A stretch of DNA of 63,167 nt, filler included, from Folioceros fuciformis (Eukaryota), in the NCBI GenBank assembly GCA_049999805.1. It is 5 parts of 4 records of this genome, joined end to end, with 100 filler letters (N's around TTAATTAATTAA, not from the genome) between each part and the next. Parts side by side here need not be neighbours in the genome. Positions count along the whole stretch, not along the records: positions 55,635 to 60,862 come from JBNGIO010005885.1; 4 more parts are not named here. One strand, 5' to 3'. Below are positions 13,323 to 63,167 of this stretch, one piece after another. The position numbers were made by a program, and so were the translations under genes. Below the pieces are notes generated by a model that saw only the letters and a list, made by a program, of their open reading frames with translations, was not told where the DNA came from and searched no databases. The stretch's first letter is position 1. The number at the start of each line of letters is the position of its first letter.

Positions 13323-16300
13323 CTACTGTGAACAATTCTGAGTAGGCAAGACAAAAACTCTAAGACCCATAGAAGTGAGATGCTTATAATGCTTGATTTT
13401 AGCAAGCCCTTTTGTCAGCAAGTCTACAATATTGTCTCGTGTATTAGGTAATCCACTTTAGCAACTCCTCTATCAGCCACATTTCTTATATAGTGATGAT
13501 AAAGCTTGATATGCTTAGTTCGAGCATGAAACCTAGGGTTGGCAACTAGGGCAATAGCTGACATGTTATCACATAACCGAGGGGTCGCTGTCTGTTGGGT
13601 CATGAAGATAGATTCTAGGAACTGCCTTTCCCACTCAATCTCCTTACAAGCGTCTGTCAGAGCCTTATACTCAGCTTCAGTATATGAGAGAGCAAGGGAG
13701 GATTGCTTTTTACAGGACCAGTTGACGGCGCCAGAAGAGAAGAGGCAGACATGAGCAGAGAGACTTCTTCTGGAGTCAGAATCCAAGGCCCAATCTGCGT
13801 CTGCCAAAACTGTAAGTACACACTCCTTCTTACCACTAGCCGTGTAGTGTAAGCCAAGGTTGATGGTGCCTTTACGATAACGGTAGATCCATTTTACTAC
13901 AGACCAGTGAGCCCTACCAGGAGCCTTCAAGAACTGGGCAACTACACTGACAGAATAGCTGATGTCAGGTCTTGTCCAGTTTGCCAAAAAGATCAGGCAC
14001 CCCACTGCCTCTGCATAGGGGACAGAAGCCATGTCCTTTTCCTCCTCTGCAGACTGTAGGGACTGATCAGCAGTGAGTTTTTCTCCAACGACGAAAGGGG
14101 CAGAGATTGGCCGAGCTTCATCAAGGTAAAAACATTTTAAAATTTCTTTAAGGTGCTTAGTCTGGTGGAGCACTATTGTACCCCTCTCTCTGTTTCTGAG
14201 GATCTGGATGCCCAGACAGAATTGAAGAGGGCCTTGATCCGTCATCTCACATTCACTGCGCAGAAGATCCTTACAGTATTGATGTGGGACACACTGTTAC
14301 TGAGGAGAATGACATCATCGATGTACAAAGCCAGAATCACAAACGAGCCTGAACCAGCTAAGTAAAAAACATTTGTATCTGCTGAGGATTGTAAGAAGCA
14401 AGACTGAAGCAGAAACTTTGTGATACGTTTGTACCATGCTCTCGGACTCTGTTTAAGGCCATATATTGTCTTCAATAGTTTGCAAACTTTATGAGGCCAC
14501 TTCTTACTAACAAACCCTTCTGATTGAACCATGTATAGGGCCTCCTCAAGCTCTCCATGAAGAAATGCCGTACACACGTCCATTTGATGAAGCTCAAGAT
14601 CAAATTCAGCAGCCAGGGCAAGCAAGATTCGAACAGATGGTGGTTTGACTATTGGTGAGAATGTATCTCCAAAATCAACACCTGGAATATGTGAGAATCC
14701 TCTCGCAACAAGTCTGCTCTTATATCTAGATATAGTCTCGTCAGCTTTAAGTTTGGTTTTAAAAACCCATTTGCAACTAATTGGCTTGCGTCCAAGGGGA
14801 AGATCAGATAGTTCCCATGTGCCATTCTTCATCAACGAGTTGTATTCGTCATCAATAGAGACTCTCCAGTGTGTAGCATCAGGTCTTGATAAAGCCTCTG
14901 AATAACTTTGTGGGTCTGGTCTGACATCAGGTACATGAAGATCTGTTACATGTGCTCCATGTCTACGAAAGTCATGAGCCTGATATGGAGGTTCAAGCCA
15001 ATTGTCTCGAGTCCTGCGCTCTCGCATAGGATAGCAAGAGGTTTCACGTTCAAGATTGTCTACAGGTGCTTCTTCATGAGGCTCAGGTATGTGTTCCTCA
15101 CTCACAATTTCCTATGGAGCCTCCTTTGCTGGCAAATCATCTGAACGAACTGATTCTTCAGACTAGACTGACCTAACGTCATCTTGGTTGGCAGGATCTT
15201 AGACTGTCTGAGCATCCTGTGTAAACAAGCCATCAACATCACATGGTGCAACTGCAAGGTCTCCATCAAAGTCTGGATAAGAGGTTTGATCCTGATCGAC
15301 ATCTGGATTAGCAGACAAGTCTTGCATTGTGGAGAGTGATGCTGACTTATACAGCCGAGTTACTGCTATGTCAGAACGAGGAGAAGTAAGCTCAGAAAAG
15401 GTGGCACTGCGTGACAAGGTAATTCTCGAATTTGATGGGTCAAAAAGTTTGTAGGCTTTGGACTCTTCTGAATATCCAAGGAATATAAGGGGCTGAGCTC
15501 GATCGTCCAACTTCTTCCTTTTTGCTTCAGGAATATAGGCAAAAGCTGGAGAGCCAAAAACCTTCAAGTGCAACAAACTGGGTTTCTAGTCCCAAAAGGC
15601 CTCATATGGAGTTCGACCAGGCAATGCAGAGGTTACAACTCTGTTAAGAATGTAAGTTGCACAAACAATAGCTTTTGCCCAATATTTGTTTGGAAGAGCA
15701 GCCCACGAGAACATACTTTGAACCATGCCCATAAGAGTTTGATTTTTCCTCTCTGCAACTCCGTTCTGTTGTTGTGCGTAGGGAACAGAGAGTTGCCTTG
15801 TAATACCATATTCCTCAAAGAGGTCATCAAACTGACGACCTGTAAACTCTCCACCATTATCTGTTCTGAAACATTTTACTAATTTACTTGTCTGCCTTTG
15901 AACCATCTTGATCCAGGTAGAGATGGTTCCAAATACATCACTCTTAACTCTGAGAGGAAAAGTCCAAGTGTATCGCAAGAAGTCATCCGTCAAGGTCAAG
16001 TAATACTCAGCTCCTCCAAGAGATTTGACAGGTAACTTTCCAACAATGTCTACATGCACTAGTTCCAATACTTGCTTTGCTCTTGTAGCAAGTTTATTTT
16101 TAAAGGGTAGTTCTTTCTGCTTGGACAGGATGCAAGAACTACAAGGTGCAAGTTGTTTAAAGCATAGTGGCAGACTCTCACGATAACAAGACGACTTGGA
16201 CATCAAATCCAATTTAGACCTATTCACATGACCTAGTCTAGCATGCCACACTTGGGCTTGGACATCCAAAGCAGGAAGGTATGCCTTGTTCTTGGACTTT

Positions 16301-17683
16301 TGAATAGGTACTAATTGATAAAGATCATTGACGAGAATAGCTTTACCAACATAACGTCCTGGATCTAACAAAGAGTGGATGTAGCAAGTTTGTTTTTCAA
16401 ACCTAAAGCCATACTTATGGCTTTCTGTAATGGCTCTAATGGACAGCAAATTCTTACCCATTTCAGGAACATAAAGAACATCCTGAAGATGCAATGTGGA
16501 GCCATCAAGCAAAGGGATGTCTGCTTCTCCAATTCCTTTTACCTCTATACCATGAGAATCACCTACGAAAACTGACAATGATGTTTTCTGTTCAGTAAAG
16601 GTGGAGAACATATGCTGATTATTGCAAACATGTGCAATAGCCCCTGAGTCAATATACTAACTCCGAGTATTCTCAATGGTAGACGTCATGCAAACTGTAA
16701 GAACTGTACTGCTTCTTCGAGCAGATTGTTGTCGACTAGGTAACATTCGTTGTTCCTTAGTAGAAACATGAGCCTCGGCTCTTGCATCCTTCTTTTTCCT
16801 ACAGTCTTGTTCCCAGTGCCTAGGAATTTGGCACCAATTGCAACTACCTGTCGCTTAGTGGTTGGGGAAGAGGAAGAAGAAGGAGCAACATGAGCAGATA
16901 AGTTTTGTCCCTTTTTGTTCTTATTATCCTTCCCTTTCCAAAGCCCTTTTCCCTTTACAGCAAATAGGACTTTCTCACCGCGAAGTCTTGAACCTGGATG
17001 AGCTCGCTGACGACTCTGCTCCTCTTGCAGGAGGGCCCCAATGATTTCATTCAGGTTTAGTGTTGAAGGCTGATCACTCGCTGCAGCCTTATATGCATCG
17101 CGCAGAGTGGCATTTTGACTTGAGATAAATGTTTGGAAGGAAGAAGGAAGATTGGATAGTAGTTGAGCAGTCATCTCCACGTCCGTTATCTTGGTTCCCA
17201 GCGCAGCAAGTTGTGCTCGCAGGTGCCTCAACTTAATGATATGTGCTCCAACTGGTTCTCCCTCCTTCAACCTGAGACTGTGAAAGTCATTCCTTACATT
17301 AATCAAGGTACAGATATTCTGAACCTGGTAAGTCTCAGTAAGTTGATTCCAAATTGCTTCAGCTGAGTCAAGGAAGTCAACTTTAGTAACAGTCGTTTCA
17401 TCCAAGCCAGATAGCAGAATGGCACAGGCGATTTTATTGCCCTTCTTCCATTTTGCTTTTTCATCTGCTGACGGTTGCACTGTTGCTATGGCAGGGACCA
17501 AGAACAGATTGGGAATTGAGCCATCCACATTTCCCAAACGTCTCTAGCGTCCAAGTTTGTCTTCATTCGAGCTTTTCAACTCTCACAGCGAAGTGGCTTT
17601 CCATCAAATCGATCCTTTTCCTTGAATTCTCCAGAGTAGAGTGATCCTAAAGATGTAGATTGTGAGACCACTCCTGTAAACAT
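13323..17683 (-). pseudogene. Copia element 1 gag-pol, frameshifted and stop-interrupted
   Basis: ORF pieces 16686-17537, 15586-16611, 15199-15576, 14242-15105 and 13424-14245. The RNase H tail DLLTKGLAK... ends near 13323. Confidence 0.88.
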
Positions 17684-18054
17684 AGTAATAGTACTGTGTG
17701 TCGTTATTTGTACAGGAAGCGATGGAGAAGAGTAAAGCCACAAGAAAGGGGAGCTCTCTGAGTCACTATCTAGATCAAACCAAGACATACCCAAAAGAGT
17801 TCACCAAGAAAAAACGAAACGACACTAAACCAGACACGAATGGGTAAGTGTTGTTTTAAATAAATGCTAAGAAAAATATCGTGAACCTGAGGCAAGAAAA
17901 CCCTAACTGAAAACTGACACCGGTTCATATCCATGTCCCAGGATGCCAAGTCTACACAGTTGGAAAGGTTTAGGTTCCTGAGGATGGAACCGACACACTG
18001 GAGAAGATCAACAATGCGCCCTGTGTCCAAACGCAGGTATACCTAAAAGCTCCC

Positions 18055-18657
18055 TCACACCCTTTCAAATCTGAAAACAGTTGGAGTGTGATTCCATTGT
18101 GCTATCACCTTCTCGCACAGGCACAGGGATTCAAGATACAAAGCAACAACTGGTCGAGATGTAGAAATCGAGGCAGATGGTTGAAGAGGCTTGCGCTGAG
18201 CAACTTGGTTCACCAACGAGGTAACTTCAGTTTGTAATATCTGAACAGCAGCGAAAATTTGGCCTAGTCTTGATTGAAACTGTGAAAACAGCTGAATCAC
18301 CAAGGTCTAAAGGCTATTAAATCGTTGAGAAACATTGGCGAAAGAGAAGCATCCATATAAGTCAGAATTCTCAAATCTCTCGTTTCCTTCACGCTCATTT
18401 GCCCACTGATTTCGTTTTCTCCTTGGTTGCAGAGAAAAACGAGTATGCCAATTATTCAACTCCAGGCGCCGTGCTGCAACGCGATTGGAAAAGGAATGTG
18501 GCGAGGCTGCAGTCTTTCTCCTGCTTCTATCATGGCTTGAGCGTCCTTGATGCCACAGTTCAGAATCAAAGGGGTCACTCAACCCAAAAGTTCCCCTGCC
18601 ACTTCTTGGAGAGAAAAGAGCAGTCATGGAACTGCATCTGTTTCCTCTCCGAGACAT
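18055..18657 (-). pseudogene. Extra ORF upstream of gag in Copia element 1, interrupted by one in-frame TAG
   Basis: ORFs 18307-18657 and 18055-18303 share a frame and are separated by TAG at 18307-18309. The peptide aligns without gaps to the 59745-60452 ORF. Confidence 0.6.
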
Positions 18658-18896
18658 CTTTAGTGCAGGGCCTATCTTATATAGTATCTATCAAACATAT
18701 ATAAATTAGTTAGATAGATCAAATAGGCTATACTAACGTATTGTATGCAGGTTGGTGGCAGAGAGATATCAGCAAATCTCAGCCTTCCCATTTTCCCATT
18801 TCAGAAGGTTGAGGTTCGCTGACACCTCTAAATCACTAACTAGACATCACACTTATTGACTAGATTATGTGTAGTGGAAGTCTCAGAGGTTCGATT

Positions 18897-18908
18897 GCTC
18901 TGATACCA
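18897..18908 (-). promoter_or_regulatory. Primer-binding site (tRNA-iMet) of Copia element 1
   Basis: Minus strand reads ...CA|TGGTATCAGAGC, the canonical plant PBS directly after the LTR end. Confidence 0.9.
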
Positions 18909-25037: not shown

Positions 25038-25055
25038 GAAGCATACCATCAGGAT

Positions 25056-26487: not shown

Positions 26488-26735
26488 GCTTGTCCTGCTT
26501 ACATCGGTGACCATTGTTTTATTACTTCATCGCTGGTTGAGATCCGATGACGATAACAACAGTTCTTACGAGGTAGTGCATGCGCCGCGGAGTTGTCTTA
26601 GTGTACTTGTGCTCGTACGCATTTACGTCCGACGGTAGCGGCTTGCATTCTCTAAATTATCCTGAATCCTAGACAGCTGACTGGGACTCGACTTTTCAAC
26701 AAAAGAACCTCAAGATAATCAGGGTCATCGGACAG

Positions 26736-28493: not shown

Positions 28494-28650
28494 GTGGCGA
28501 TCAAGAAATCACTGTATCTCTACGTGGACGATCATCTAGCAGGTGCTTTACAAGCGCGAGGAGAGCGAATAGTGCGAAGGGGAAATATGGAGCAGGTTGC
28601 CAGAAGGCCTTTTAATTGCTGTGCCAATGAAATTGCCGTGTATGGGCCAC
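28494..28650 (+). pseudogene. Truncated, frameshifted copy of the F-box gene 5' end
   Basis: (V)AIKKSLYLYVDDHLAGALQARGER versus MAMKESLYLFVDDQLAGASQAGGER; homology stops inside the F-box. Confidence 0.85.
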
Positions 28651-28720
28651 CGACGCCTAGAACGGTTGCGTCGGTCATCGAATTTCTTTTCAAACATAGA
28701 GGGAAGTGGGAGCCTCTCTG

Positions 28721-29045
28721 CTGATGGTCTGTTGTGCTACAGTGTTCAGCTCCTTTGGCTGCAATGTTTGTAAAGTGGATGCAGAGGTGCCTCTCCTGAT
28801 GGTCCGTGTATGCTGCACCGTTCGGCTCATTTTGCTCTGTGTTTTTAAACGGGATGACGAGCCCCCCCCCCGCTGATGGTTTGTGTGTGCTGTAGCGTTC
28901 AACTGATTTTGATCCAGTGTTTGTGAACTGGACGAAGAGGCTCCTGTCCGCTGATGATCTGTGTGTGATGCAGCGTTAGCCAATTTTGTTGCAGTGTTTA
29001 TACACGCAATAAAGAGGCCCCTCCGCTGATGGTCTGTGTGTCCTA
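28721..29045. repeat. Degenerate 75-78-bp tandem array, about 4.3 units
   Basis: Motif ctgatg(g/a)t(c/t).. begins at 28721, 28796, 28873, 28951 and 29026. Confidence 0.75.
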
Positions 29046-29369
29046 TAATTCCAAGCTTGGAAAGCTTCATTGCGTTGAGCCTATGGATGAACGGAAACAC
29101 GAGATCAGCGACGTACACAACATTGACATCCAATATTACAACTCCACAATATTAGAACACGACAGTTAAGCCAAGTGCCATGAAGACCGATCAGGAATGG
29201 GGTTCTATCCTTGCAGTATTTGTAAATCGTCTTCACCCTGCCGGCGTCTGGGGTGGCAAGCTAATTACTCCCCAGTGTGAGGTCTCTGCGTGTGCACCAA
29301 CTATGTATATCGTAGCTATCAAGACCAGGTGAGGACAGACATGTATGCAGTGGAATCTGCCAGATTCCA

Positions 29370-30578
29370 CTGCATGGTCACTGCAGAGGTGTTCACTCCC
29401 GCACCGATCAAATCCTGCAACACACAAACAACATGGTAGGATCCCGAATTCCTGCTTCGAACCAGAGGAACATGCTTAAAGTGTTGGGGTGTCATGCAGG
29501 TGTGGTGCAGCAACTAACCTGTATTAGCCCTTTGATCGCGTTGTCGGTGTTGGGCATAGCTCCCTCCTCAGCCCGTTGAGAAAGTAGCACATCCATGAAG
29601 TCCTGCTCTGCCTCTGTCTGCTGCTGCACCGCATTCTGTTTTCTGTGCTCCTTCAGCTCATTGCTCAGGAACTTGTCCAGCTTTGCGTGTCAATTGGCAA
29701 TCTGCTTCTTGGGCCACCAGTCCAAAAATGCCAGGTACCGAGAACGATCTCCCACCATTGGAATTCCGTACAGGTGGAAGAGCTCGTCCAGCGTTTGCTT
29801 GAGTTCTGGACCGACAGATTCAGCCTACAAGGGCAGGAAACTTTCATCCAAGCTTGAGACAATCCAGAAATTACATCACTGTTCTCTGGCGTGGACATGC
29901 AAGCCAGGCCTACCTGGTGGGAGCTTCCTTGGTTGAAAACTCGTTTCCCACACGGCTGTCTCGTCATGAGATTCATGGTCCGAGCAGCAAGCTTCTAGTT
30001 CAAGTCGACTTCCACATCCCTGGCGATCTCGTCCAAAATGGAGAGCACCATGTCAGACATTTCTTGCTGCCTTGCAGCTGCATACTGACTCATCCGCTTC
30101 TGCGTGAGGAGCTCAACACCTTCCTGCAATGATTTCAGCCCGTGTAAGCGGGCATTCTGCATTGCTAACAACACCATTCTCGCGTAAGGAAAGCACCAAG
30201 GGACCTGAGGTATCTCGACTGTAGTCCGTAAGGGGTGGCGGCAGTGGAGCCTTCGATGCATGCCAATCTAGAAGCGAAATTCCGGTCCTGATTCTTGAGC
30301 ACTTCCCGGGCCATCTCCGGGAACGAGATGAGCACCAAACAACCCCCTGCCAGGCGAAGATGCAAAATGGGTCCATACTGCTCCGCCAATCTATCCACCT
30401 CATGGTGAGGATGAGGAGATCTCAGAAATAGGTGCAGGTGCCCGATCAGGGGCCAAGATGGGGGTTCCGGTTGCAGATTCAGTCTGGCCCCAGCCTTGCC
30501 CATTTGCATCCATCGATCGAGCACAAATGTGGCCGGAATGCCTGTAAAGAGCGGCAGAAGCAAGACACTCACATCCAT
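29370..30578 (-). pseudogene. Cytochrome P450 (CYP71 clan) 5' half, frameshifted
   Basis: Membrane anchor, PEPPSWPLIGHLHL, YGPILHLRL, MAREVLKNQDRNFASR, ELLTQKRM...RQQEM, DFMDVLL and I-helix DLIGAGVNTSAVTMQW. Contains frameshifts and in-frame stops. Confidence 0.85.
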
Positions 30579-32734
30579 TTTCCGCTTCACTCTAACTAGA
30601 GCCACAGCGTGCCTTCCTTTGCAGCTCCTTGGAAGTTGGGATCCTTTCCCGGCTTGGGAGGGTCTACGGACGGATAATGATAAAGCAAAAACTCGGCTTA
30701 GGACAGGCCTTCTTCTGCTTTTCTGTTTCCCCTAGGAAAGGGAAGGGGAAACATCACTACAATCGGTAGCTGCGGCGCTCCTTATGAGGCGATCTCCCAC
30801 CTCCTGCCACGAGGGTCCCGACTCCCGGACCACGTTCTCCTAGTTTCCGGTTCCTGCTTGGGATTGATGGGGTGTTTTGAGAAGATTGTGAAGAAACGAC
30901 AACCCTTGGGAAGGCGCCATATTATGGGATTCGCCCCCTAGCAGAATATAATGCAAAATCTGTATTCCTTGTTGGTCACGTTCCGAGCCACCATTGCATT
31001 GCCAAAGATGAGTACTCATCTCACCTACTAGTGCAATACTTAAAAACAGATAGTACAAAATTCATCCCATCCTAGGATGTCATAGAGAAGATCCTAGGAT
31101 GTCATAGAGAAGCGTGTGAACTTTCTAAATAGCCATCTTTCACAAGGTGCTGCGCGCCTTGAATTTGGTTCCAGCAAAATTTCACCCGTACAGAAGTAGC
31201 CAAAACTTAACTTTTGAGGAAAGTAGCAAACTTTAATGTAGTTAAGTATCATATTATGTAAACAATATATATTTCTGGTCACATGATATATGATTGATTT
31301 ACGTTAAGGCATAATTGGAGAGTCATGAATATTAGGGAGCCCTTTGTATAAGGTGAAGTGGTTTCTAGGGCTCAATTATTTGTTAAGCCAGAACACCTTA
31401 TAGTTGCTCACCACAACAACTTGATACTGCCTAACATTAACGCATGATTGTCAAAAGTAGTTATTTCCTATTATCAAAAAAGAATAAAAAATCTCATTTA
31501 CTTCTAAGGTAAGGGAACAAAAAGAGTGCGGCCAAAGTCTTAAAAAAGTACTAGCCCCTCTAAACATCATTCAAAAAAACTACTTATGTCTTGACAAAAT
31601 ATGCAAGAATAGTGAGACCAAGCAATTCACAAGACCCCAAGACTATTATACACTTCATATTTTTTAATGAGAATAGTCAAACAAACAAATAAAGTTTCAT
31701 TTTTATTTTTGAATATTATGAAAGACCATAGCTACACAATAATAGTCTACATCATATAAAAGTAAATTTATTTATCACAATACTTTTATTTTAAGATCTA
31801 TTGTGAATACCTTTATATTTGATTATAAACTTGTTGAGTCAAGACATAGCTGTGGATTAATTCGTAATCAATGCAGTCCATGATATCCTTAATTCATAAC
31901 CAATGCAGTCCATGATATCCTGTAAGAGATATGCTTAATCTCTTGCCCAGAAAGAAAAGACTATACAGGACGTATCTGGAAGTCCATGCACGTATACTTC
32001 AATCCATTAAACCAACATTAATTGTGTCTTCAATCCATATAACCGACANNNNNNNNNNNNNNNNNNNNNNNNNNNNNNNNNNNNNNNNNNNNTTAATTAA
32101 TTAANNNNNNNNNNNNNNNNNNNNNNNNNNNNNNNNNNNNNNNNNNNNCTCTCGCGCCTCGCCCTCCTGCCTTGCTGCAACAACAGCAGCAGCTGTGGAG
32201 TCCTGCCGCGGCTGTGCGCTGCCGTGCCCTGCTCTGCCACTGCTGTCCGCGCGCCTGCTCCTGCTCCTCCGCCTGCGCCTCTCTGGCCCGCCTGCTGGAC
32301 CTCTACTTCTGCCCGCCTTGCCTCGCCTCGCCTCACCTCGCCTCGCCACGCATTGCACCCCCTTGTCAACAACATTGTTCGTTTGCTGTGCTGCTTGTTG
32401 TGGATGTGCGATTCTTGTTCCACTGCCGGGGCTGTCGTCATGCATCTGTGCTGTTGGAGGACGGGGTGCCGGTGGGAATCGCGACTTGGACTGAGATCGC
32501 TCTGAATTTGGCCACCTCACGTCCTCCTCCACCTCCCCCTCAGGGGCCTTCCCAGTAGGGATTTCAGCGTGTCTCTCCCCCGGACATCTCTGCAAACAAT
32601 TCTTCTTCCTCAGCTTGTCTTCACAGCACAATCAAGATTCCACGTAACATCTCTCACAACGGGCGTGTCAGAGGTTGAGGTCGACAGGGCCGGCATGCTG
32701 GCGTGAAAACGTCTTCGTAGACACCTTCCGGAAC

Positions 32735-41689: not shown

Positions 41690-42578
41690 ATGCAACCATG
41701 GGGAGGGTCAGAGATTGATTTGCAGCTTGTTGTCCTACCCGATTGGACACCATTTCTGTGTGATGGATACAGTAATCCATGCTATGGGAGCAAGAAGTAC
41801 ATTGGTGATGATCCTTTCACGAAGACCTTGGAAGATGTACTTCTTTCTCAAGCTCATTCTTTCTTTGGTTACGAAGACTTCTTGACATTGCCACTATCAG
41901 AAGTGATGCAAAGCTACATTCTTTTCGAAGGCCTTGAGGTACGCTAGTACGAAACCCACGTTTTGCATATTAATGTTTGATTCATCATTGTTACAAATTA
42001 GATCTAGAATACTACTGAGCTAGATGTCTTTGGAGCTTGTCCAGGAATTCAAAACATTGCAGGTATCAATACCTATCTTGGAGGAGGAGACAGAGCAAGA
42101 TGGCATAGTTGTTAAACTTGAGGCTCTTATGCAATGTGATTTCCTCGTAGTTGGAAAGGAGTCTGGGAAGCGCAGAAGTAGAGAGCACTACTATCATGTG
42201 ACGACGCATGCTACAAGGGGGAATAAAGAGGCTCAAATATGGGAGCCTTTTGCCTATGACAAGAGATCAAATGGCCGTTCTGGATGCCACCATTATCTTG
42301 GAAGCTATACTACAGATTTGAAGGCTGCGCAAGCTGCAGACAAGATGTGTATCAAGATGTATTTGGAAGGGTACACACCTTTGGTTCACCCCAGGACTAG
42401 GAGGAGCTCCAAGATTAAGCTCAACTTTTCTCCTTGGGATTATCTGGAATACATGAAAAGTCCAGATGTGATCGCAATCACGGATTTTCAAGAGTTTGCC
42501 AAGTATTTGAGAACACATGAATCTGATTATGTCAGTGTTTCTAGGACTCAGTTGAAGAGGAAGAGGCATCACCGATGA
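41690..42578 (+). CDS. Divergent single AP2-domain protein
   Basis: Frame-consistent model: exons 41690-41938, 42008-42062 and 42151-42578. Domain HYYHVTTH..GNKEAQIWE...YLGSY...AAQAAD...KLNFS..DY...EFAKYLR. Confidence 0.65.
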
Positions 42579-55285: not shown

Positions 55286-55633
55286 GAATCTTAAAACACT
55301 GTGTGTATGAACCGAAATAAAGAACAAAGGATGTGTCCCTTTCGATCCACATACTAGGTAGAGTGAGAGAAAAAAATCCCTAGGTTTGACGATGTGGCTA
55401 GGTTGAGTACAGGAATATTCCCAAGATGCCACCATATATTCCTATAGAAAATACGTATTCCAAAATAAAAAATAAAATGTGTGTAGCCCCTGTCCAAATC
55501 AGTATTCCATACCAGTTTGGGCTTGAGCACGAACNNNNNNNNNNNNNNNNNNNNNNNNNNNNNNNNNNNNNNNNNNNNTTAATTAATTAANNNNNNNNNN
55601 NNNNNNNNNNNNNNNNNNNNNNNNNNNNNNNNN

Positions 55634-58600
55634 NTCTGTGCTTGATAAAGCCACAGTGGGCTGTTTCTTACTAGACCAACAGATTGGTCCTCCAGCTAAC
55701 ATGACTACATAACCTGAGACTGACTTCCTTGTGTCTATGTCTCCGGCATAATCAGAATCTGTGAAGACATCAAGATGTAAGGGTACTCCAGGTATGTTTC
55801 TGTAATTTATACCAATACTGTGAGTTCCCTTTAAGTATCTGAAAACTCTTTTAACACCTGTCCAGTGTGTTTGTCCTGGGTTTTCCAGATACTGTGATAA
55901 GACACTAGTAGCATAGGCTACTTCCGGCCTAGTTGTGTTTGCTGCATATATGAGTTTCCCAACTGCTTGTCTGTAAGGGACTAAACTCATTTTGCCCTTT
56001 TCTAATTGTATATCAGGACACATGGACTTACTCATTTTCAGTCCACAAGGTAAAGGGGTTGCAGAAGGTTTAGCATCCTTCAATCCAAGTTGCTCAGCAC
56101 TATTGAGAAGGTAACGTGGCTGCGTAAGTGAGATTGTTCTCTTCTTTCTGTCACGTTGAATAAGAATACCAAGGCAGCTCTGTAAGGCTCCTAGATGTGT
56201 CATCTCAAACTTGGTTGACAACATTTTATTAATGTCTTTGATGAAGGTGGGACTGTTACAAGCCAATGTAAGGTCATCAACATATACTGCCAGGTAACAC
56301 ACTACTTCATTTGCCCTGTACACATATAAGCTTCCATCTGAAACACATCTAACAAAACTCAAAGCTCGCAGCTCTTCGTCCAGGACAGCATTCCATTCAA
56401 GAGCTGATTGTTTCAGTCCATACAGGGTTTTAATTAAGCGTAAGACATGGTCTTCTTTCCCTTTAACCTCGTATCCTAGTGGCTGTTGCATATAAATCTC
56501 AGTATCCAGCTTTCCATGTAAGAAAGCTGTCTTTACATCAAACATATCCAGCTCATAGTCATTGTGTGCTGCCAATGCACAGATGGTGCGAAAAGTGGCC
56601 AGCTTAACAACAGGAGCATATGTTTCAAGGTAATCGAGGCCTGGTACTTGAGAAAAGCCTCTGGCAACAAGCCTGGCTTTATAACGATCAAAGGTACCAT
56701 CAGCCTTAACCTTTAATTTGAACACCCATTTGCAAGATACTGGCTTGCGTCCAGGAGGTAGTCTTGCTAATTCCCATGTTCCATTTTTGATGAGGGAATC
56801 GTATTCAGATTGAATGGCCTTCTTCCATTCAGCAGCATCAGGACGTCTCAAAGCTTCTTCATAAGATTGAGGCTCCATAGGATCAAGGTCAACTGCATGT
56901 GCAGAAGGTTTCCTAAAGTCTTGTGATTCATAAAAGTCTGGTGCACGTCTGTCCCGTGTAGAATAACGGCGTACAGGGAGAGGAGGTGGCTCGTCAATAG
57001 GAGCGGGAACATCCTCAAGGTTACTATCAACAAGAACAGCAGGATCAGGATCAGCAACAACATGAGGAGGTTGGTCCTGAAGATCAGATTCAGCATCTGC
57101 AACTGGTTGCTGGTTGTCCTCATTATCACTTTGCTGGTGGTCTTCCCCCCCTGCAGGAGCAAACTCCTCATGAGGGTGATCAGGGAAAACCGTGATTTGA
57201 GGAAGAGCAGCTAGATCAAAATCGTCTGAAGAGGTGGGAGGAGCTCCCACCGGCTGCCAAACTTGTTGTTCATCAAAAGTAACACTGCGAGCATAAACTA
57301 CAGTGTTCTCAGGTACATCATATAACTTGTATGCTTTAATACCTTCAGTGTAGCCTATCATAAGGTATTTCTTGGCTTTAGCAGCTAACTTAGCACGTTT
57401 CTTCTTAGGTATGAAGGCATAAGCTATGCATCCAAAGGTTCTAAGGTGTAAGATAGCTGGTTTTCTACTGAAGAAGGCTTCATAGGGAGTTTGTCCAGCA
57501 AGTGCATTAGTGGGCAGCCTGTTATGCAGGTACACTGCTGTCATAAGGGCTTCAGCCCAATAGGAAAGAGGCAGAGAAGCTTGATGAAGCATAGAAGAAG
57601 TCATTTCCTGCAAAACAACATTCAAATGTTCTGCCACACCATTTTGCTGTGGTGTATATACAACTGTAAGTTGCCTTCCTATTCCCTCGGCAGTACAAAA
57701 AGATTGAAATTCACCAGAAGTGAATTCACCTCCATTGTCTGATCTGAGGGTTTTTAACTGCTTGCCAGTCCAGCGCTCTGTGTACTTCATGTAATCTTTG
57801 AATAGAGAAAAGCATTCACTTTTAGCTTTGAGAATATAAGCCATGACAAACCTTGTCTTGTCATCTGTGAATGTCAGGAAGTACTTGCCGCCACCAATTG
57901 AAGGCTGTGAGAGAGGTCCACAGATATCTGTGTGAACCAGCTCAAGAACCTTTGAAGCCCTGTAGGGAGCCTTATTCTTGAAAACTACCTGGTGACGTTT
58001 GGATAAGACGCAGGCTTCACATAGAGGTAGGGTCGGCAGTGTGCCAATTTTGCCATCAGCATACAGGTCACTGGTTGCAAGTTTCTGTAACTTAGCACTA
58101 TGTGGGTGACCTAGGCGAGCATGCCACAGCTTAGCTTTATCTTCTGACTTACTAGAAGACTCTGTAGACTTAGCAGCTAAGTGTGTTTTTGCCGTATGGC
58201 TGTCTGTTTGCAGACGAAAGAGGTCATGTGAAGATGACCCATAAGCTAGGATCTTACGATGGTCAAAGGCATCAATGATCCTACACTCTGTAGGAGTAAA
58301 CAAGATGTGAGTATGATTATCCATGTTAAGTTTCCTAACAGAGATGAGATTCCTAGTCATTTCTGGAACATAGTACACATCTTTCAGTATGAGTGTTATT
58401 CCTGAAGGGACTGGAATCTCTACAGTGCCTCGTCCTGGAGACACAAGTGATTTGTCATCACCTAAGTAGACAAACTGATTGTCTACGAGCTTGTAAGTGA
58501 CAAAAGCATTTTTGTCAAAACATATGTGCGCTGTGGCACCTGTGTCAAGGTACCACTCACTTACTGGTTTACCTTGTGTGTTTGCAGATAAGCAGGTGGG

Positions 58601-59590
58601 GTTAACAAGAGGATATGCAAACTTCCTAATCCCTACTGTAAGGGCAGAAGTTGAGCCTTGCTTTTTCACCACTACGTTTGTCTCTGAAGTGGAGTTGCCC
58701 TCCTTGCGAGGTACTCCGGCCTGTTTCTTTCGACATTCGTTTTCCCAATGTCCTGGAATCTGGCACCAGTGGCATTTTCCAGATTTATTGGGTTTCTTCT
58801 GTGCTGTCCCTCGCCGTGAGGAACTAGCACCTTGAAAGGTATTTGGTTTACCTTTAAAGTTGGGTCTTGCACCCTTGTTTTTATTTGTGGTGTAAAGAGC
58901 CTGCTGCTTACCAGCACGCCTGTTCTGTCCTCTTGTAGCCTCTTCCTGGAGAAGAGCTCCCACTAACTCAGAAAATGTTGTGTGTGGTATTGTGACACCT
59001 GCAGCCTTAGCGATCTTTGAAGCCTGTAGCTGAGAAGCATTGTAAGATGTCACAAAGTGTGACCATGAGTCAGGCAGAGACATCATAAAATACAGGGTAA
59101 GGAGCTCATCAGTCAGAGCCTCCTGTGAAGCACTTTCCAGCTTAGAAATAAGGGATCTAAAGTGCCCAACATGTTTTTCAACTGTCTCTCCTTCTCTCAT
59201 TCTACAATTTTGTATGTTGCGAAGGGCTGTCATTTGACTTGTGGTATTGACGCCTGCGTACAGTTCGTGCAATCTGGTCCAAATCTCAAGAGATGTATTA
59301 CAGCCAGAAGTTTGTCGCAGCATATCAGAGGTTAGTCCACTCCTCAACAAGTGTTGTGCAGCTTCATCCTTCGCATACCAAGCTTCCTGTAATTTCTTTT
59401 CAGAAGCAGAGGGAGTGGCCTCATCAGAGGCATCAAGTACAGGACGTGTCTCGTCTCCTGTTACTATTCGCCACAACCTCTTGCTTTGTAAGGCTCCTTT
59501 CATACGCATGACCCAGATGTCATAATCAGTTCCCCCGAATCTATCTTTCTCAGTAAAAATAACACCACCAGCTCCAGTGGTGTCAGCCAT
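55634..59590 (-). CDS. Copia gag-pol polyprotein, 3' end truncated by gap
   Basis: More than 1300 codons without a stop. Zinc knuckle CHWCQIPGHWENEC, protease YLDTGAT, integrase WHARLGH/LRSDNGGEF, RT YKARLVARGF/YVDD, RNase H TDSDYAG. Confidence 0.96.
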
Positions 59591-59744
59591 TTGTTAGAAT
59601 GTGGTAATTCTATCCTGACTGTTAGGAAGAATGGCTATGTAAAGACTTGTAACCTATCCAGACAAGGTACAAATTGAAGAGAAAGACAAGGGAAGGGTAA
59701 GATGCTACTGTTGCATCTTAGATAGACTGCAAGAGCAGTCCTGT

Positions 59745-60452
59745 CTACAAAGGATGAGCAAACCTACCAACTTGAGGTAAATTGGCTTGTTGATTTGCTA
59801 ATCTATTTTCTATCCTTTGATGTCTAATCTCGAACCTGTTAAATGCATAAACAGAGCATGAAGGACAGGAATTTGGGGCATCAAAAGTATGTTGCTTATA
59901 TTTCTTGTCAGCACGTTTGCAGGCAACACCTCTGTGTGCTGGATTTGTTAGCAAAACGGGCTTGAGCAAGGTAAGCAACTTGAAGTCCAAATGTCCTATT
60001 CGTTCCTTCAATTCTTGCAAGTCAACACTGACTTCAGCTATCTTGTGACGAATGCTCTGGAAACGCTCATCAACATGCTTTTGATGTGTTTCTATTCTTG
60101 CATTTAATTGTGATACACTAACATGTTGTGATGTGTGTGTTGTCAGGAAACCCCTAGGGTTACCGTTTACAGCAAGTGGAAGATTGTCTTGGTTTCTGGG
60201 TGGTGGAGCAAGCAGCAGATGACGCTGATGTGGGAAGATTGCTTCAATCAGATTATTGAAGGAATCCCTCACAATCTGTGAGTGTTCAGGCTGGTCTTGT
60301 GTTTGAAGGATCCAATCCAGGGTTTGATGGTAAAGTGATTCTGCGAACATCAGCCTGCCCTCTTGGATTTGTTGTCCTCTGTGAGCATTCCTCTGTTGGA
60401 TGCGCTCAGCAGGGCGTTGTCGCCATCGCTGCCCGTCCACCAGGTTGGCCAT
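59745..60452 (-). CDS. Extra 235-aa ORF between PBS and gag of Copia element 2 (coiled-coil-like, CPSC motif)
   Basis: ATG-initiated open frame on the gag strand, ending 154 nt before the gag ATG. It has a heptad-like segment and similarity to the disrupted ORF at the same position in element 1. Confidence 0.7.
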   Translation of the reverse strand: MANLVDGQRWRQRPAERIQQRNAHRGQQIQEGRLMFAESLYHQTLDWILQTQDQPEHSQIVRDSFNNLIEAIFPHQRHLLLAPPPRNQDNLPLAVNGNPRGFLTTHTSQHVSVSQLNARIETHQKHVDERFQSIRHKIAEVSVDLQELKERIGHLDFKLLTLLKPVLLTNPAHRGVACKRADKKYKQHTFDAPNSCPSCSVYAFNRFEIRHQRIENRLANQQANLPQVGRFAHPL

Positions 60453-60803
60453 TCATGTGGCCAGCCTTTTTGTATTTTGTTATTTTTCAAGAAACATGTG
60501 TAGCTTTGTAAATAATTCTATAATAAAATATTTGCCAATTCTGGCAGTTGTTCTAGCGTGCCTAGTGCCAGATTGCAGAAGTGCAATCTGACAATGGATG
60601 CACTAGAACAGCCTCCTAGAAATGCAAATCTTTTGAAATATAAATCAAAAAAAGCTATAAACTCATTTCTTGAAATTTGTTTTAAAGGTTTCTTTACAAG
60701 AAAACAACAATCAAAACATATAAACAAAATACATTGTCCCGCACATCAGAATGTGCAGATTTTAATGTGCATTCTCACAAAATGCAATCTACACCTAAAC
60801 ATG

Positions 60804-60815
60804 GCTCTGATACCA
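60804..60815 (-). promoter_or_regulatory. Primer-binding site (tRNA-iMet) of Copia element 2
   Basis: Minus strand reads ...GTCA|TGGTATCAGAGC. Confidence 0.9.
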
Positions 60816-61384
60816 TGACAAATATTGGATTGGATTGGTGTAGACCAATTGCTATATTAAACNNNNNNNNNNNNNNNNNNNNNNNNNNNNNNNNNNNNNN
60901 NNNNNNTTAATTAATTAANNNNNNNNNNNNNNNNNNNNNNNNNNNNNNNNNNNNNNNNNNNNCCGAAGCCGCCCTGCAAGAATCGGAAACGAAGGATGTT
61001 CAGATCTACATACGCACAAACAATTCCATGTGATTGCAGTGTGCAGGCGAGCAGTACTTCGTCTTCGTATGCATTTGGTGATGTGGTCAGTTATGCCTTA
61101 AATCGCCATCTTGACAAGTGAGCAAAACGGTTTTCAAGAAGTATGTAATCAGCTGCGACTTTTGTGTTTGACTGCGTTTTTTGGCATAGTTTAAAATCCT
61201 AGCTTCCTTGTGTGTAAGAGTGCTATGGAGAGCCATACGGCCATGGAAAAGGCTTTTCAAGGTTCAGTGCAAAGGTCTATCGTGGACATGGAAAATGGGG
61301 TTCTTCCTCTTTTTTTTTGTGATGCCTTCTCTTGGTATTCATTGATTGCAGAGAGTATTTTCCAACACTTATTCATTGATTGCA

Positions 61385-61758
61385 ATCAGTATTAGCCAAT
61401 GCAATCATTGCAAAGTTGATTGCAAACAATATTAGCCAATGCAATCATTGCGAAGTTGATTGCAAACAATATTAGTCAATGCAATCATTGCTTGTGAAGA
61501 GTATTAACCAATGCAATCATGCAATGCTTTGCTGAGAGTATTAGCCAATGCAATCATTGCTTTGCTGAGAGTATTAGCCAATGCAATCATTGCTTTGCTG
61601 AGAGTATTAGCCAATGCAATCGTTGCTTTGCTGAGAGTATTGCCAATGCAATCATTGCTTCATAGAGAGTATTGGCCAATGCAATCATTGTTTTGCAGAG
61701 TGTTGGGCAATGCAATCATTGCTTCCCAAAGAGTATTGGCCAATGCAATCATTGCTTC
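61385..61758. repeat. ~33-40-bp tandem repeat, about 10 copies, running into a gap
   Basis: Core gagtattagccaatgcaatcattgctttgctga. Confidence 0.92.
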
Positions 61759-62949
61759 NNNNNNNNNNNNNNNNNNNNNNNNNNNNNNNNNNNNNNNNNN
61801 NNNNNNNNNNNNNNNNNNNNNNNNNNNNNNNNNNNNNNNNNNNNNNNNNNNNNNNNNNCTTGCAAGCTTGTAAACAACCATCGAGTATAGTTGATGTTTA
61901 AGTTTGCATCGTTTAAAAAAAATCATCACATGTCTTTGAAGAACTTCTACCCAAGGTGAAGACTTTATTGTATCATGTAACAGACACAAATGTCAATAAT
62001 GCAACTTCTTGGGCATCAATAGTAGGTAGACTTTTTGTTATTTTGGAATGATTCATGCAAGTCAATTGACTTCTTTGGCACCAATCCAACCTTGGCAAAT
62101 AATCTTTACTTGGGGATTTAAAAACAATTATTCCTCTAAACAATTTATACTTCAAAACCGTGTCAAATAGATCCTTATAGTCTAAACTTGGAGGCCTAAA
62201 GACATTTTTACTTAAAAAGAAGGAATTATTTTTTCTTCTTCAAAAAAACCAAAAAAATAAATTACTCCCAAAACATGCACGTGGAATATTTTAAAGTAAG
62301 AGGAACATGAAAATAGCTTGCAAGCTTGTAAACAACCATCGAGTATAGTTGATGTTTAAGTTTCCATCGTTTAAAAATGAAAATCATCACATGTCTTTGA
62401 AGAACTTCTACCAAAGGTGAAGACTTTATTGTATCATGTGACACACAGATAAAGTAATTCTTCACAACGTTTACATTTTCCACCCCTATATTGTGGTAGG
62501 GATGACATTGGTACTTCTTCTTCAACCTTGTTTGCAAGCTTTTCAACGTGAGGGAATAGTGAATACCACACTAACCCTTCAATAAGGACAAAACCCTAAA
62601 CCCTTGATATCTTCCTTTTTCATAGCACTTTCTACTTCTCCATGTCTACCAGAAAATTTGAAGCCATTTATTCCTCTTCTTCCATTTACCTACCCAACCA
62701 TAGCTGGCTAAATATCATACCAGGACTACCATCCAGTGGTAGTCCTTTGTGAAAGAAACGAGCTTTCTCACATGGCAATTTGTCACACTTCTCTCTTTTT
62801 TTCTTTAATCAGTGTATAGTGCATATGAGTATTGTAGCTATGTCAAAGCACCAAAGCTTCTTCTATGGGTAGAAAGCATGCACACCATTCATCTTAACAT
62901 AGGACCAAAGCACATGCTGAAAATGGGAAGCATGCAAACCGTTCATTCA

Positions 62950-63085
62950 AGGAGAGACTAGTGATTGCTACACCTTCAATTTCATAGAACACCACTTATT
63001 TGAGGAGATGCTAGTGATTGCTACAACTTCAATTTCATAGAACGCCAGTCATTCGAGGAGATACTACTAATTGCTATAACTTCAA
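62950..63085. repeat. ~53-bp tandem repeat, about 2.5 copies
   Basis: Unit ctagtgattgctaca(c/a)cttcaatttcatagaac...gaggagat. Confidence 0.75.
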
Positions 63086-63167
63086 TGCAATGGAACATGG
63101 AGACACCAACTTGTTCCCTTTGTTAGGATTTTGGTAAAGCGGAGCTTAGAAAATCACATGATTAGCA

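What the first reader, a model, noticed from the sequence alone, without database searches (positions are those of the whole stretch)
59745..60452. Copia lineage with a conserved extra gene between PBS and gag
Seen: LTR end, PBS (60804-60815), ~350-nt leader, an intact 235-aa sense ORF, a 154-nt spacer, then gag-pol. The protein has a Gln/Arg-rich N-terminus, a heptad segment (LNARIETHQKHVDERFQSIRHKIAEVSVDLQELKERIGHL) and a Cys/His cluster (H..VAC...HT...CPSC). Element 1 has a similar ~1.2-kb leader holding an alignable, stop-interrupted ORF. Known: canonical Copia elements have only gag-pol; extra 5' ORFs are described for Ogre/Tat Gypsy elements, and Sirevirus env-like ORFs lie 3' of pol. 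Inference: an accessory protein (oligomerising, possibly metal-binding; e.g. anti-silencing, targeting or particle function). A cctaacag acceptor-like site ~30 nt before the gag ATG hints that splicing could bypass the ORF. I cannot confirm novelty without a database search.
Basis: partly seen in the sequence, partly recalled or inferred. Interest (0 to 1): 0.82.

Follow-up and report, generated by a model that had tools for sequence, protein, structure and literature searches.

The report
Extra coiled-coil gene in Copia retrotransposon
A plant Copia-type jumping gene carries an intact extra 235-codon gene in front of gag that looks like real coding sequence for a helical coiled-coil protein with no known relatives, but such extra genes are already known as a class and its conservation could not be shown here.

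Summary
The anatomy is as described: PBS, 351-nt leader, intact 235-codon sense ORF (60452-59745, minus strand), 154-nt spacer, then Copia gag-pol. The window is five scaffolds joined by linkers. This element sits alone on a 5.2-kb scaffold with only 47 nt of LTR.

Three intrinsic tests say the ORF is real coding sequence:
- Length: 1 of 20,000 leader shuffles reaches 235 codons.
- Codon use like gag-pol, in this frame only (0-9 of 3,000 stop-free random ORFs reach it).
- An eight-heptad hydrophobic repeat (0 of 3,000 shuffles reach it).

It has no Pfam family, and no true homologue among 1.84 billion representative proteins or in PDB. "Conserved" is not shown. Genome contigs cover the ORF several-fold, but only 5 variants were visible (3 synonymous).

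Element 1 has a decayed 305-codon frame in the same position. It is not alignable to this ORF (best E 1.1).

The leader folds into one long hairpin (z -5.4) with a short uORF ending at its base. That matches the pararetrovirus ribosome-shunt layout.

The zinc-binding idea gained no support, and no donor-like site was found for an ORF-bypassing splice.

Extra ORFs in 582 Copia elements are already catalogued (Neumann 2019). Verdict: probably genuine, family-specific 5' accessory gene; new member of a known kind; moderate interest.

The parts
60816..60862 (-). Last 47 nt of the presumed 5' LTR, ending ...TTTGTCA; cut off by the scaffold end/linker
   Evidence: No second copy in the window, so LTR status is inferred from position next to the PBS.
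60804..60815 (-). Primer binding site TGGTATCAGAGC (tRNA-Met type; the assignment is recalled)
   Evidence: exact match. The only other exact match in the window is Element 1's PBS.
60453..60803 (-). Structured 5' leader with 8 upstream ATGs (uORFs of 2-18 codons). One long hairpin pairs 60733 with 60471 (MFE base 60746 with 60455). uORF1 (ATG 60802) stops at 60748-60746, at the base of the stem.
   Evidence: MFE -106.3 kcal/mol, z -5.43, 0 of 100 shuffles fold as well.
59745..60452 (-). Extra sense ORF, 235 codons plus TAG. Basic Gln/Arg-rich N-terminus, eight-heptad helix (about residues 111-166), basic cluster KRADKKYK (179-186), C178/C196/C199.
59591..59744 (-). 154-nt pyrimidine-rich spacer between the ORF stop and the gag ATG. 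Donor-like TG|GTAGGT at 59767 (inside the ORF end) and acceptor-like TTCTTCCTAACAG| at 59619.
   Evidence: (z -2.57).
55635..59590 (-). Copia gag-pol, open for 1,318 codons to the scaffold end (gag, protease barrel, integrase, RT; C-terminal end missing)
18897..18908 (-). Element 1 (other scaffold): PBS TGGTATCAGAGC
17773..18687 (-). Element 1: 305-codon sense frame with 3 stops in the leader, a decayed ORF in the same position. No detectable similarity to the 235-aa ORF.
13424..17543 (-). Element 1: degraded Copia gag-pol in several frames, 38% identical to the finding's gag-pol

Best explanation
The ORF is a genuine protein-coding accessory gene of one Ty1/copia family of a land plant. It is a 5' sense extra ORF, the 'eORF-5'F'/'5'aORF' class.

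Shown:
- It is intact, far longer than chance allows, and uses codons like the element's own gag-pol.
- It encodes a mostly helical protein with a basic Gln/Arg-rich N-terminus, an uninterrupted stretch of about eight heptads, and a short basic cluster.

Inferred:
- The protein self-associates through the coiled coil. It acts on the element's own RNA or particle, for example as an RNA-binding, RNP or transport factor, rather than as an enzyme.
- It is translated from the full-length element RNA. Eight upstream AUGs precede it and the leader is one long hairpin. The most likely route is therefore a short-uORF-dependent bypass of the hairpin (ribosome shunt) or reinitiation.
- gag-pol, which lies behind 12 further AUGs, would need a processed or second RNA, or reinitiation.

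The gene evolves fast and is family-specific. A second, distantly related Copia in the same genome holds a decayed, unalignable ORF in the same place.
For: - Length: 1 of 20,000 shuffles reaches 235 codons.
- Codon use with a gag-pol-trained model: +0.13 bits/codon in frame 1, against -0.39 and -0.37 in frames 2 and 3 and -0.10 to -0.35 antisense. gag-pol cross-validation gives +0.16 to +0.21.
- Against stop-free random ORFs from three Markov nulls, z is 2.75 to 3.4, and 9, 3 and 0 of 3,000 reach the observed value.
- The ORF ranks 7th of 118 stop-to-stop frames of at least 100 codons in the window. Five of the top nine are Element 1 gag-pol pieces. The window's five Pfam-identified host gene frames (GH3, plastocyanin, pyridine-nucleotide oxidoreductase, F-box, bHLH) score -0.06 to -0.25.
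- Heptads: 14 of 16 a/d positions are L/I/V/M/F in residues 111-166. 0 of 3,000 shuffles of the protein reach 14 (maximum 13). gag-pol's own best is 11.
- AlphaFold2 predicts helix 113-169, with pLDDT 75-87 for residues 110-140.
- No tandem repeats. No similarity to gag-pol.
- Genome contigs of two runs cover the ORF region with several distinct contigs, up to 10 at position 60080. Of the 5 variants shown there, 3 are synonymous third-position changes. None of the 12 indels shown lies in the ORF, while 5 lie in the leader and 2 in the spacer.
- Leader hairpin: z -5.43. uORF1's stop abuts the base of the stem and the ORF AUG lies 3 nt after the last MFE pair. This matches the 'shunt configuration' described in PMC5902531 (passages).
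- Element 1 has a decayed frame in the same position. It is sister to this element in a 38-row RT tree, SH-aLRT 89, below the tool's 95% mark for firm support.
Against: - No homologue anywhere. Pfam best E is 0.023, below all cut-offs. There were 0 hits among near-length proteins. Only 2 spurious tandem-repeat hits came from 1.84 billion representatives. Nothing came from the Atlas, PDB or metagenome and viral contigs.
- Conservation among copies is not shown. The variant sample is tiny: 3 of 5 synonymous, against 22-35% expected, and 4 of 10 in gag-pol. In addition, 1,718 differences and 24 indels were not displayed.
- Eight uAUGs, one overlapping out-of-frame AUG 4 nt upstream, and a T at -3 make the start weak.
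- The overall AlphaFold2 model is poor: mean pLDDT 58.5, pTM 0.27.
- No RNA or protein evidence.
- Translating this ORF would hinder gag-pol translation from the same RNA.
- The E1/E2 ORFs share no detectable similarity, so common descent of the two ORFs is only a possibility.
Confidence: 0.6

Rival explanations
1. Non-functional open frame. The long leader is selected as RNA (PBS, packaging or dimerisation hairpins), and a 235-codon frame is open in it by accident or as a dying relic. No protein is made.
For: - No homologue in any search.
- Eight uAUGs and a weak start context.
- The leader is clearly structured RNA.
- The ORF is below the 250-codon threshold used in the published catalogue.
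- The scan looks at very many windows, so a 5e-5 event can turn up.
- No expression evidence.
Against: Three independent signals go beyond openness:
- Length.
- Frame-specific, gag-pol-like codon use, even against stop-free nulls.
- An eight-heptad hydrophobic periodicity that no shuffle reaches.

The structured part of the leader ends before the ORF.
Confidence: 0.15
2. Transduced passenger. The ORF is a fragment or whole copy of a host (or other mobile-element) coiled-coil gene picked up by this subfamily. It is carried along and not needed by the element.
For: - Gene transduction by plant LTR retrotransposons is documented (review PMC7264820, part 1 read).
- Coiled-coil segments diverge fast.
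- The host lineage seems poorly represented in the protein database. The best gag-pol hits are only 35% identical over the full length, so a lineage-specific donor could be missed.
Against: - No homologue among 1.84 billion representatives.
- Its codon use matches gag-pol, not the window's Pfam-identified host genes, which all score below zero.
- It is a complete ATG-to-stop frame, bounded by a stop directly before the ATG.
- A second Copia holds an ORF remnant in the same position.
- Several distinct genome contigs cover it.
Confidence: 0.15
3. Upstream exon. The ORF is joined to gag by splicing and forms an N-terminal extension of Gag rather than a separate protein.
For: A donor-like TG|GTAGGT lies 8 codons before the ORF stop (59767). 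An acceptor-like pyrimidine tract plus AG lies at 59619, 28 nt before the gag ATG. The interval between them is about 150 nt and T-rich.
Against: - Reading the sequence, that junction continues the ORF in the +1 frame relative to gag and stops after about 40 codons. No ORF-Gag fusion results.
- The ORF and gag are in different frames (862 nt between the two ATGs).
- The site scores rest on a recalled consensus.
- No RNA data.
Confidence: 0.05

Closest known systems
Extra ORFs of plant LTR retrotransposons, category eORF-5'F (Neumann et al. 2019, Mob DNA 10:1, PMC6317226; passages seen)
   Same: A sense ORF between the 5' LTR/PBS and the polyprotein. It is an orphan protein without conserved domains. 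The catalogue reports heterogeneous, apparently fast-evolving or independently acquired sequences: 582 Ty1/copia elements with extra ORFs, in 45 similarity groups.
   Different: This ORF has 235 codons, below the catalogue's 250-codon cut-off. The main text singles out only SIRE's 3' ORF for Copia. How many Copia elements and lineages carry a 5' sense ORF is given only in supplements, which I could not open.
5'aORFs of Tekay chromoviruses (Ty3/gypsy), e.g. sunflower Tekay 13-2, rice RIRE3/Retrosat-2 (PMC11728184; passages seen)
   Same: Position upstream of gag, in sense. A few well-predicted helices plus disordered regions, a basic NLS-like motif, no sequence similarity between species, and unknown function.
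   Different: They belong to another superfamily (Gypsy). They are about 400 aa and proline-rich. Conservation is demonstrated there (500 of 523 copies), which I could not do here.
SIRE (Sirevirus) env-like eORF-3'F, the one accessory ORF typical of a Copia lineage (PMC6317226 passages; PMC7264820 part 1)
   Same: Same superfamily. It is an accessory ORF of unknown function with very divergent sequences (19 groups within SIRE).
   Different: It lies 3' of pol, not 5' of gag. Its env-like features (transmembrane segments) are not seen here.
Ogre ORF1 (Tat clade, Ty3/gypsy)
   Same: A long sense ORF upstream of gag in a plant LTR retrotransposon.
   Different: It is a Gypsy element. 57% of Ogre eORFs carry the plant mobile domain, whereas this ORF has no Pfam match.
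Ribosome-shunt leader of plant pararetroviruses (CaMV, RTBV) and prototype foamy virus (PMC5902531 passages; PMC2761275 abstract in listing)
   Same: A short 5' uORF ends in front of the base of one large stem-loop that encloses further uORFs. An A/U-rich unpaired stretch and the first long ORF's AUG follow just behind the stem.
   Different: This resemblance is in silico only. The 5' part of the transcript (R-U5) is missing from the scaffold, so it is unknown whether uORF1 is 5'-proximal. The element is a Copia retrotransposon, not a pararetrovirus. No covariation or reporter data exist.
LINE-1 ORF1p (recalled, not tested here)
   Same: An upstream ORF on a bicistronic retroelement RNA that encodes a coiled-coil, basic, nucleic-acid-binding protein. 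This is the working analogy for function.
   Different: There is no sequence or fold match, and no RRM or CTD is detectable. Here a separate gag already exists.

Membership tests
Ty1/copia LTR retrotransposon | gag plus pol with integrase upstream of reverse transcriptase (RVT_2 type) | tested here: met
   Retrotran_gag_2 30-220, Pol_BBD 346-422, gag_pre-integrs 457-531, rve 547-647, RVT_2 936-1180.
Ty1/copia LTR retrotransposon | PBS complementary to the 3' end of tRNA-Met, next to the LTR end | tested here: met
   TGGTATCAGAGC directly after ...CA. The tRNA assignment is recalled. PMC6317226 passages say most Copia groups use this PBS type.
Ty1/copia LTR retrotransposon | Two LTRs, PPT and target-site duplication | not testable with these tools
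   The scaffold ends 47 nt into the 5' LTR and inside pol.
eORF-5'F (extra ORF as defined by Neumann et al. 2019) | Upstream of the polyprotein, forward orientation | tested here: met
eORF-5'F (extra ORF as defined by Neumann et al. 2019) | At least 250 codons | tested here: not met
   235 codons, with a stop directly before the ATG. This is a threshold of that survey, not a biological criterion.
eORF-5'F (extra ORF as defined by Neumann et al. 2019) | Not lying in tandem repeats | tested here: met
   no array inside 59745-60452.
Conserved aORF (as opposed to a transduced passenger; criterion in PMC7264820) | Present in all or most copies of the family | tested here: inconclusive
   the ORF region is covered by several genome contigs, up to 10 at one site, with summed depth like that of the neighbouring gag. 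Copies could not be read individually.
Conserved aORF (as opposed to a transduced passenger; criterion in PMC7264820) | Purifying selection, with sequence conservation like gag-pol | tested here: inconclusive
   3 of 5 visible variants are synonymous, against 4 of 10 in gag-pol and 22-35% expected. The sample has no statistical power.
Conserved aORF (as opposed to a transduced passenger; criterion in PMC7264820) | No similar cellular gene outside transposable elements | tested here: met
   with the caveat that the host lineage is poorly represented.
Coiled-coil protein | Continuous heptad repeat with hydrophobic a/d positions in a predicted helix | tested here: met
   14 of 16 positions, and 0 of 3,000 shuffles reach it; helix 113-169.
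Coiled-coil protein | Self-association | not testable with these tools
   Needs biophysics. See Tried and rejected for the one in-silico attempt.
Zinc-finger / metal-binding domain | A recognised Cys/His ligand pattern or family match | tested here: not met
   There are only C178, C196 and C199 plus scattered His. No Pfam zinc-finger hit even at E<=1. pLDDT is below 50 for 177-208.
SIRE env-like ORF | Located between pol and the 3' LTR | tested here: not met
   The ORF lies 5' of gag.
Pararetrovirus-type shunt configuration | [quoted passage not shown] | tested here: inconclusive
   The geometry is met in the predicted fold. The 5'-proximal status of the uORF and its function are untested.

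The most novel reading that the evidence does not exclude
The two Copia elements in this window represent a deep, poorly sampled Copia lineage of a non-model land plant that is ancestrally bicistronic. It carries a fast-evolving 5' gene for a basic coiled-coil protein. That gene is translated by pararetrovirus-like ribosome shunting over a hairpin leader. The protein serves the element's RNA, in export, packaging or protection from silencing. This would be the first Copia lineage with a defining 5' accessory gene and the first LTR retrotransposon using a CaMV-type shunt.
Probability: 0.12. Interest if true: 0.7.

Novelty: new member of a known kind. Interest (0 to 1): 0.4.

Why it matters
Accessory genes of plant LTR retrotransposons are numerous, but almost none has a known function. 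In Copia elements only the 3' env-like ORF of SIRE is regularly discussed.

A clean, intact 5' ORF with a strong coiled-coil signature and a shunt-like leader is a tractable case. It bears on two open questions: what such proteins do, and how a retrotransposon RNA with a long uORF-laden leader is translated.

If the ORF proves conserved across a Copia lineage, it would add a structural hallmark for classifying that lineage. If it does not, it is one more orphan ORF of the kind already catalogued.

Tried and rejected
- Whole-genome search: no genome is held for this window.
- Earlier findings of the scan: nothing relevant.
- Metagenome and viral contig scans with the ORF: 100 and 3 pattern matches, none confirmed.
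- Metagenome scan with gag: 3 loci, only 22-25% identical, with about 130 nt upstream. They are useless for the leader.
- Sequencing runs: no RNA holder listed. The guessed-RNA run X4 gave 6 short pieces, all under 90% alike, so nothing can be said about expression.
- Homodimer prediction of residues 100-180: no verdict.
- Foldseek of the low-confidence model: no match with E<=0.001 against PDB (2 matches at E<=10) or viral structures (238 at E<=10). phmmer against PDB gave 0 hits at E<=1.
- Atlas: best cosine 0.77, below any useful level.
- The two HMMER hits (P0001, P0002) were rejected. A match of about 24 residues is multiplied by tandem repeats in the target.
- ORF against gag-pol: best E 2.2.
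- Element 1 frame read with X at its three stops (P0047): no Pfam match, no homologues.
- Splice bypass of the ORF: no donor-like site in the 5' leader by a crude consensus count.
- dN/dS: not computable from the 5 visible variants.
- Literature searches for a described 5' sense ORF in a Copia element found only the bulk catalogue and Gypsy examples. Supplements that may list Copia eORF-5'F cases were closed.
- REXdb lineage assignment was not possible with the tools at hand.
Full report
WHAT THE WINDOW IS

The 63,167-nt window is not one stretch of chromosome. Four N44-TTAATTAATTAA-N44 linkers split it into five scaffolds: 1-12542, 12643-32048, 32149-55534, 55635-60862 and 60963-63167. Pfam hits on other scaffolds point to a land plant: F-box/KIB1-4 propeller, bHLH, GH3 and plastocyanin. 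No whole genome is held.

The finding's element occupies the whole 5,228-nt fourth scaffold, on the minus strand.

ANATOMY (OBSERVATION CHECK)

Reading the minus strand, the parts are:
- 47 nt ending ...TTTGTCA (60862-60816).
- The PBS TGGTATCAGAGC (60815-60804).
- A 351-nt leader.
- An ATG...TAG ORF of 235 codons (60452-59745).
- A 154-nt spacer.
- gag-pol from ATG 59590, open for 1,318 codons until the scaffold ends.

gag-pol carries the Copia domain series, with integrase before RVT_2. The LTR cannot be verified, because no second copy of its 47 nt exists in the window. The quoted heptad segment, the Cys/His cluster and cctaacag 28 nt before the gag ATG are all present. A TGA stands directly before the ORF's ATG, so no longer form of the frame exists.

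IS THE ORF MORE THAN CHANCE?

Three largely independent tests say yes.

1. Length. Only 1 of 20,000 dinucleotide-preserving shuffles of the 1,213-nt PBS-to-gag interval yields a sense ATG-ORF of at least 235 codons. The shuffle mean is 63.

2. Codon use.
   - A codon model trained on the element's gag-pol gives +0.13 bits per codon in the ORF's frame. The other two sense frames give -0.39 and -0.37, and the antisense frames -0.10 to -0.35.
   - gag-pol halves cross-validate at +0.16 to +0.21. The flanking leader and spacer are negative in all frames.
   - An open frame scores better than a random one merely by lacking stops. I therefore compared it with stop-free random ORFs from three Markov models. 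That gave z 2.75, 2.95 and 3.4, and 9, 3 and 0 of 3,000 reached the observed value.
   - Among all 118 stop-to-stop frames of at least 100 codons without N in the window, the ORF ranks 7th. Five of the top nine are Element 1 gag-pol pieces. The window's five Pfam-identified host gene frames score between -0.06 and -0.25.

3. Protein-level periodicity.
   - In residues 111-166, 14 of the 16 a/d heptad positions are L/I/V/M/F in one unbroken register.
   - 0 of 3,000 shuffles of the protein reach 14 (maximum 13).
   - gag-pol's own best window has 11, and the ORF's other two frames have 9 and 7.

No tandem repeat underlies the frame. Taken together, I consider it likely that this is, or very recently was, a translated gene.

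WHAT THE PROTEIN LOOKS LIKE

The protein has 235 aa and is rich in L, Q, R, H and N.
- The N-terminal 35 residues hold 7 K/R against 3 D/E.
- A basic cluster KRADKKYK (179-186) contains a K-K-x-K motif. That the motif is NLS-like is recalled, not tested.
- A single-sequence AlphaFold2 model is weak overall (mean pLDDT 58.5, pTM 0.27). It predicts helices at 6-51, 55-72, 113-169, 171-180 and 198-223. The best confidence (75-87) falls exactly on the heptad segment. Confidence is below 50 over 77-108 and over the Cys/His region 177-208.
- There are only three cysteines (178, 196, 199), and no zinc-finger family matches even at E<=1. The metal-binding idea therefore has no support.

RELATIVES

None were found.
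- Pfam: the best E is 0.023, far below the gathering scores.
- Word-indexed search of 5.8 billion clusters: 0 hits.
- HMMER against 1.84 billion representatives: 2 hits at E<=0.001. Both are tandem-repeat proteins in which one 18-24-residue chance match is multiplied five-fold.
- ESM Atlas: top score 0.77.
- PDB sequences: 0 hits.
- Foldseek: nothing at E<=0.001.
- Metagenome and viral contigs: nothing.

This silence has limited weight. The element's own gag-pol finds nothing closer than 35% identity over its full length. In the RT part, identity is 48-50% over about 210 residues. The Copia lineage itself is therefore poorly represented in the databases.

IS IT CONSERVED?

This is the weak point of the finding.

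The only access to other copies was one lay of Logan contigs from four coded runs.
- The family is repeated. In X1, 592 pieces were laid: 60 at 99% identity or more, 58 at 95-99%, 116 at 90-95% and 358 under 90%. X2 is similar.
- The ORF region is covered throughout, by up to 10 distinct contigs at position 60080.
- Summed depth there is 89-234 in X1. Exact-match contigs have about 37-39. The tool warns that this is no copy number.

Only the best-supported differences are printed: 40 of 1,758.
- Five of them lie in the ORF and are seen in the two ordinary DNA runs. Three are synonymous third-position changes and two are replacements, K125Q and D89N.
- The expected synonymous share is 22% for all changes and 35% for transitions. 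In gag-pol, the same table gives 4 synonymous of 10.
- Of the 12 indels printed (24 more were not shown), none lies in the ORF. Five lie in the 5' leader and two in the spacer. The five in pol are frame-preserving in sum: +11 with +1, and +1 with -1.

All this points the right way, but it is far too little to claim purifying selection.

ELEMENT 1

It has the same PBS (18908-18897), a degraded gag-pol (38% identical) and a leader of about 1.3 kb.
- One sense frame of that leader has only 3 stops in 305 codons (18687-17773). Of 5,000 shuffles, 2 reach this with 3 stops allowed, 23 with one stop, 80 with two and 234 with none. The choice of 3 stops was post hoc. A decayed ORF in the same position is plausible.
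- It is not alignable to the 235-aa protein. tblastn found nothing. Smith-Waterman z was 1.37, 0.12 and 0.0 for the three frames. The best BLASTP E was 1.1, and a colinear alignment of 81 columns at 21% identity had E 5.9.
- Read with X at the stops, it has no Pfam match and no homologues.
- In a quick maximum-likelihood tree of the RT part, Elements 1 and 2 are sisters with SH-aLRT 89, below the tool's 95% mark for firm support. The tree has 38 rows and 211 columns. It uses 36 of the 44 database hits; 7 were left out for under 200 aligned residues and 1 for having no HSP.

A shared, fast-diverging 5' gene in a common lineage is thus possible. It is not shown.

HOW MIGHT IT BE EXPRESSED?

Eight ATGs precede the ORF, giving uORFs of 2-18 codons. 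The last lies 4 nt upstream, is out of frame and overlaps the start. The ORF's own context has T at -3 and G at +4. Twelve further ATGs lie between the ORF's start and the gag ATG, so leaky scanning to gag is excluded.

The 363 nt from the PBS to the ORF fold far better than shuffles: -106.3 against -77.8 +/- 5.3 kcal/mol, z -5.43, with 0 of 100 shuffles as good.
- Both the MFE and the centroid contain one elongated hairpin pairing 60733 with 60471. In the MFE it extends to 60746 with 60455.
- uORF1 is the first ATG after the PBS (60802, 18 codons). It ends at 60748-60746, exactly at the base of that structure.
- The ORF's AUG follows 3 nt after the last MFE pair. The stretch before it is A/U-rich and is unpaired in the centroid.

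This is the layout that Pooggin and Ryabova describe as the 'shunt configuration' of plant pararetrovirus leaders (PMC5902531, passages). I offer shunting as the most economical way for ribosomes to reach this AUG, at roughly 30% probability. Such structure could equally serve packaging or dimerisation. The transcript's true 5' end (R-U5) is also missing.

Element 1's leader is structured too (z -3.73).

It found one donor-like site 8 codons before the ORF's stop (59767), and the acceptor-like site he noticed (59619). Reading the sequence, that junction would remove the spacer and continue the ORF in the +1 frame over gag's start for about 40 codons. It would not fuse the ORF to gag. How gag-pol is translated remains open.

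COMPARISON WITH WHAT IS KNOWN

Extra ORFs in plant LTR retrotransposons are a recognised, heterogeneous class. They occur upstream or downstream of gag-pol, in sense or antisense (PMC7264820: abstract and part 1 of 3 read).

Neumann et al. 2019 counted ORFs of at least 250 codons in 582 Ty1/copia and 3,372 Ty3/gypsy elements. They divided the Copia ones into 45 mutually dissimilar groups, defined the category eORF-5'F, and found CDD domains in only 21.4%. For Copia, their main text highlights only SIRE's 3' ORF (PMC6317226, passages only). The per-lineage tables are in supplements that were closed.

Conserved 5' sense ORFs are documented for Tekay chromoviruses: 500 of 523 sunflower copies, with helices, disorder and an NLS, and no similarity between species (PMC11728184, passages). 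They are also documented for Ogre.

My four searches found no paper that describes or characterises a 5' sense ORF of a Copia element. Steinbauerova et al. 2011 was seen only as a citation.

The present ORF is therefore a new, orphan member of a known class, in the less-documented Copia/5' corner of it. It is not a new kind of thing.

VERDICT

The 'conserved' and 'alignable' parts are not established.
- Best reading: a genuine, family-specific 5' accessory gene for a basic coiled-coil protein (confidence 0.6).
- Rivals: an accidental or relic open frame (0.15), a transduced passenger (0.15), and an upstream exon of gag (0.05).
- Novelty: new member of a known kind. Interest: 0.4.

Noticed in passing
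window 12543-12642, 32049-32148, 55535-55634, 60863-60962: The window is a concatenation of five scaffolds joined by N44-TTAATTAATTAA-N44 linkers (six-frame stop spacers). Features on either side of a linker are not neighbours in the genome.
   Followed up: yes
window 55635-60862 (run X3): Differences in run X3 are almost all C>T (390 places) and G>A (364). This is the signature of bisulfite-treated DNA. Its apparent stop at ORF codon 27 (60374) is therefore a conversion artefact, not a broken copy.
   Followed up: partly
window 59619-59767, minus strand: A donor-like TG|GTAGGT lies 8 codons before the ORF stop, and an acceptor-like TTCTTCCTAACAG lies 28 nt before the gag ATG. They bracket a T-rich interval of about 150 nt that looks intron-like. 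Splicing would extend the ORF in the +1 frame over gag's start.
   Followed up: partly
window 18658-18908, minus strand: Element 1's leader between the PBS and the first Met of its decayed frame is also strongly structured as RNA (z -3.73, 0 of 200 shuffles).
   Followed up: partly
window 19171-19515 (-), 42024-42575 (+), 2909-3229 (-): Three further open frames of 107-184 codons have Copia-gag-pol-like codon use, as high as or higher than the finding's ORF. They may be other transposon fragments. The first lies upstream of Element 1's PBS, in its presumed LTR.
   Followed up: no
window 21643-25771: A block with many long overlapping open frames on both strands and in several frames (up to 280 codons). 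It has the most un-Copia-like codon scores in the window (-0.5 to -1.1). It is stop-poor sequence of unknown nature, and the ORFs tested had no Pfam hit.
   Followed up: no
window 61376-61767, 62938-63096, 20546-20838: Tandem arrays are present: units of about 33-40 nt (10 copies) and 53 nt (3 copies) on the last scaffold, and 67-nt units (4 copies) upstream of Element 1.
   Followed up: no
window 57087-57088 and 58028-58034: The indels printed for pol in other genomic copies are frame-preserving in sum: +11 with +1, and +1 with -1 within 7 nt. This fits related copies with an intact pol.
   Followed up: no
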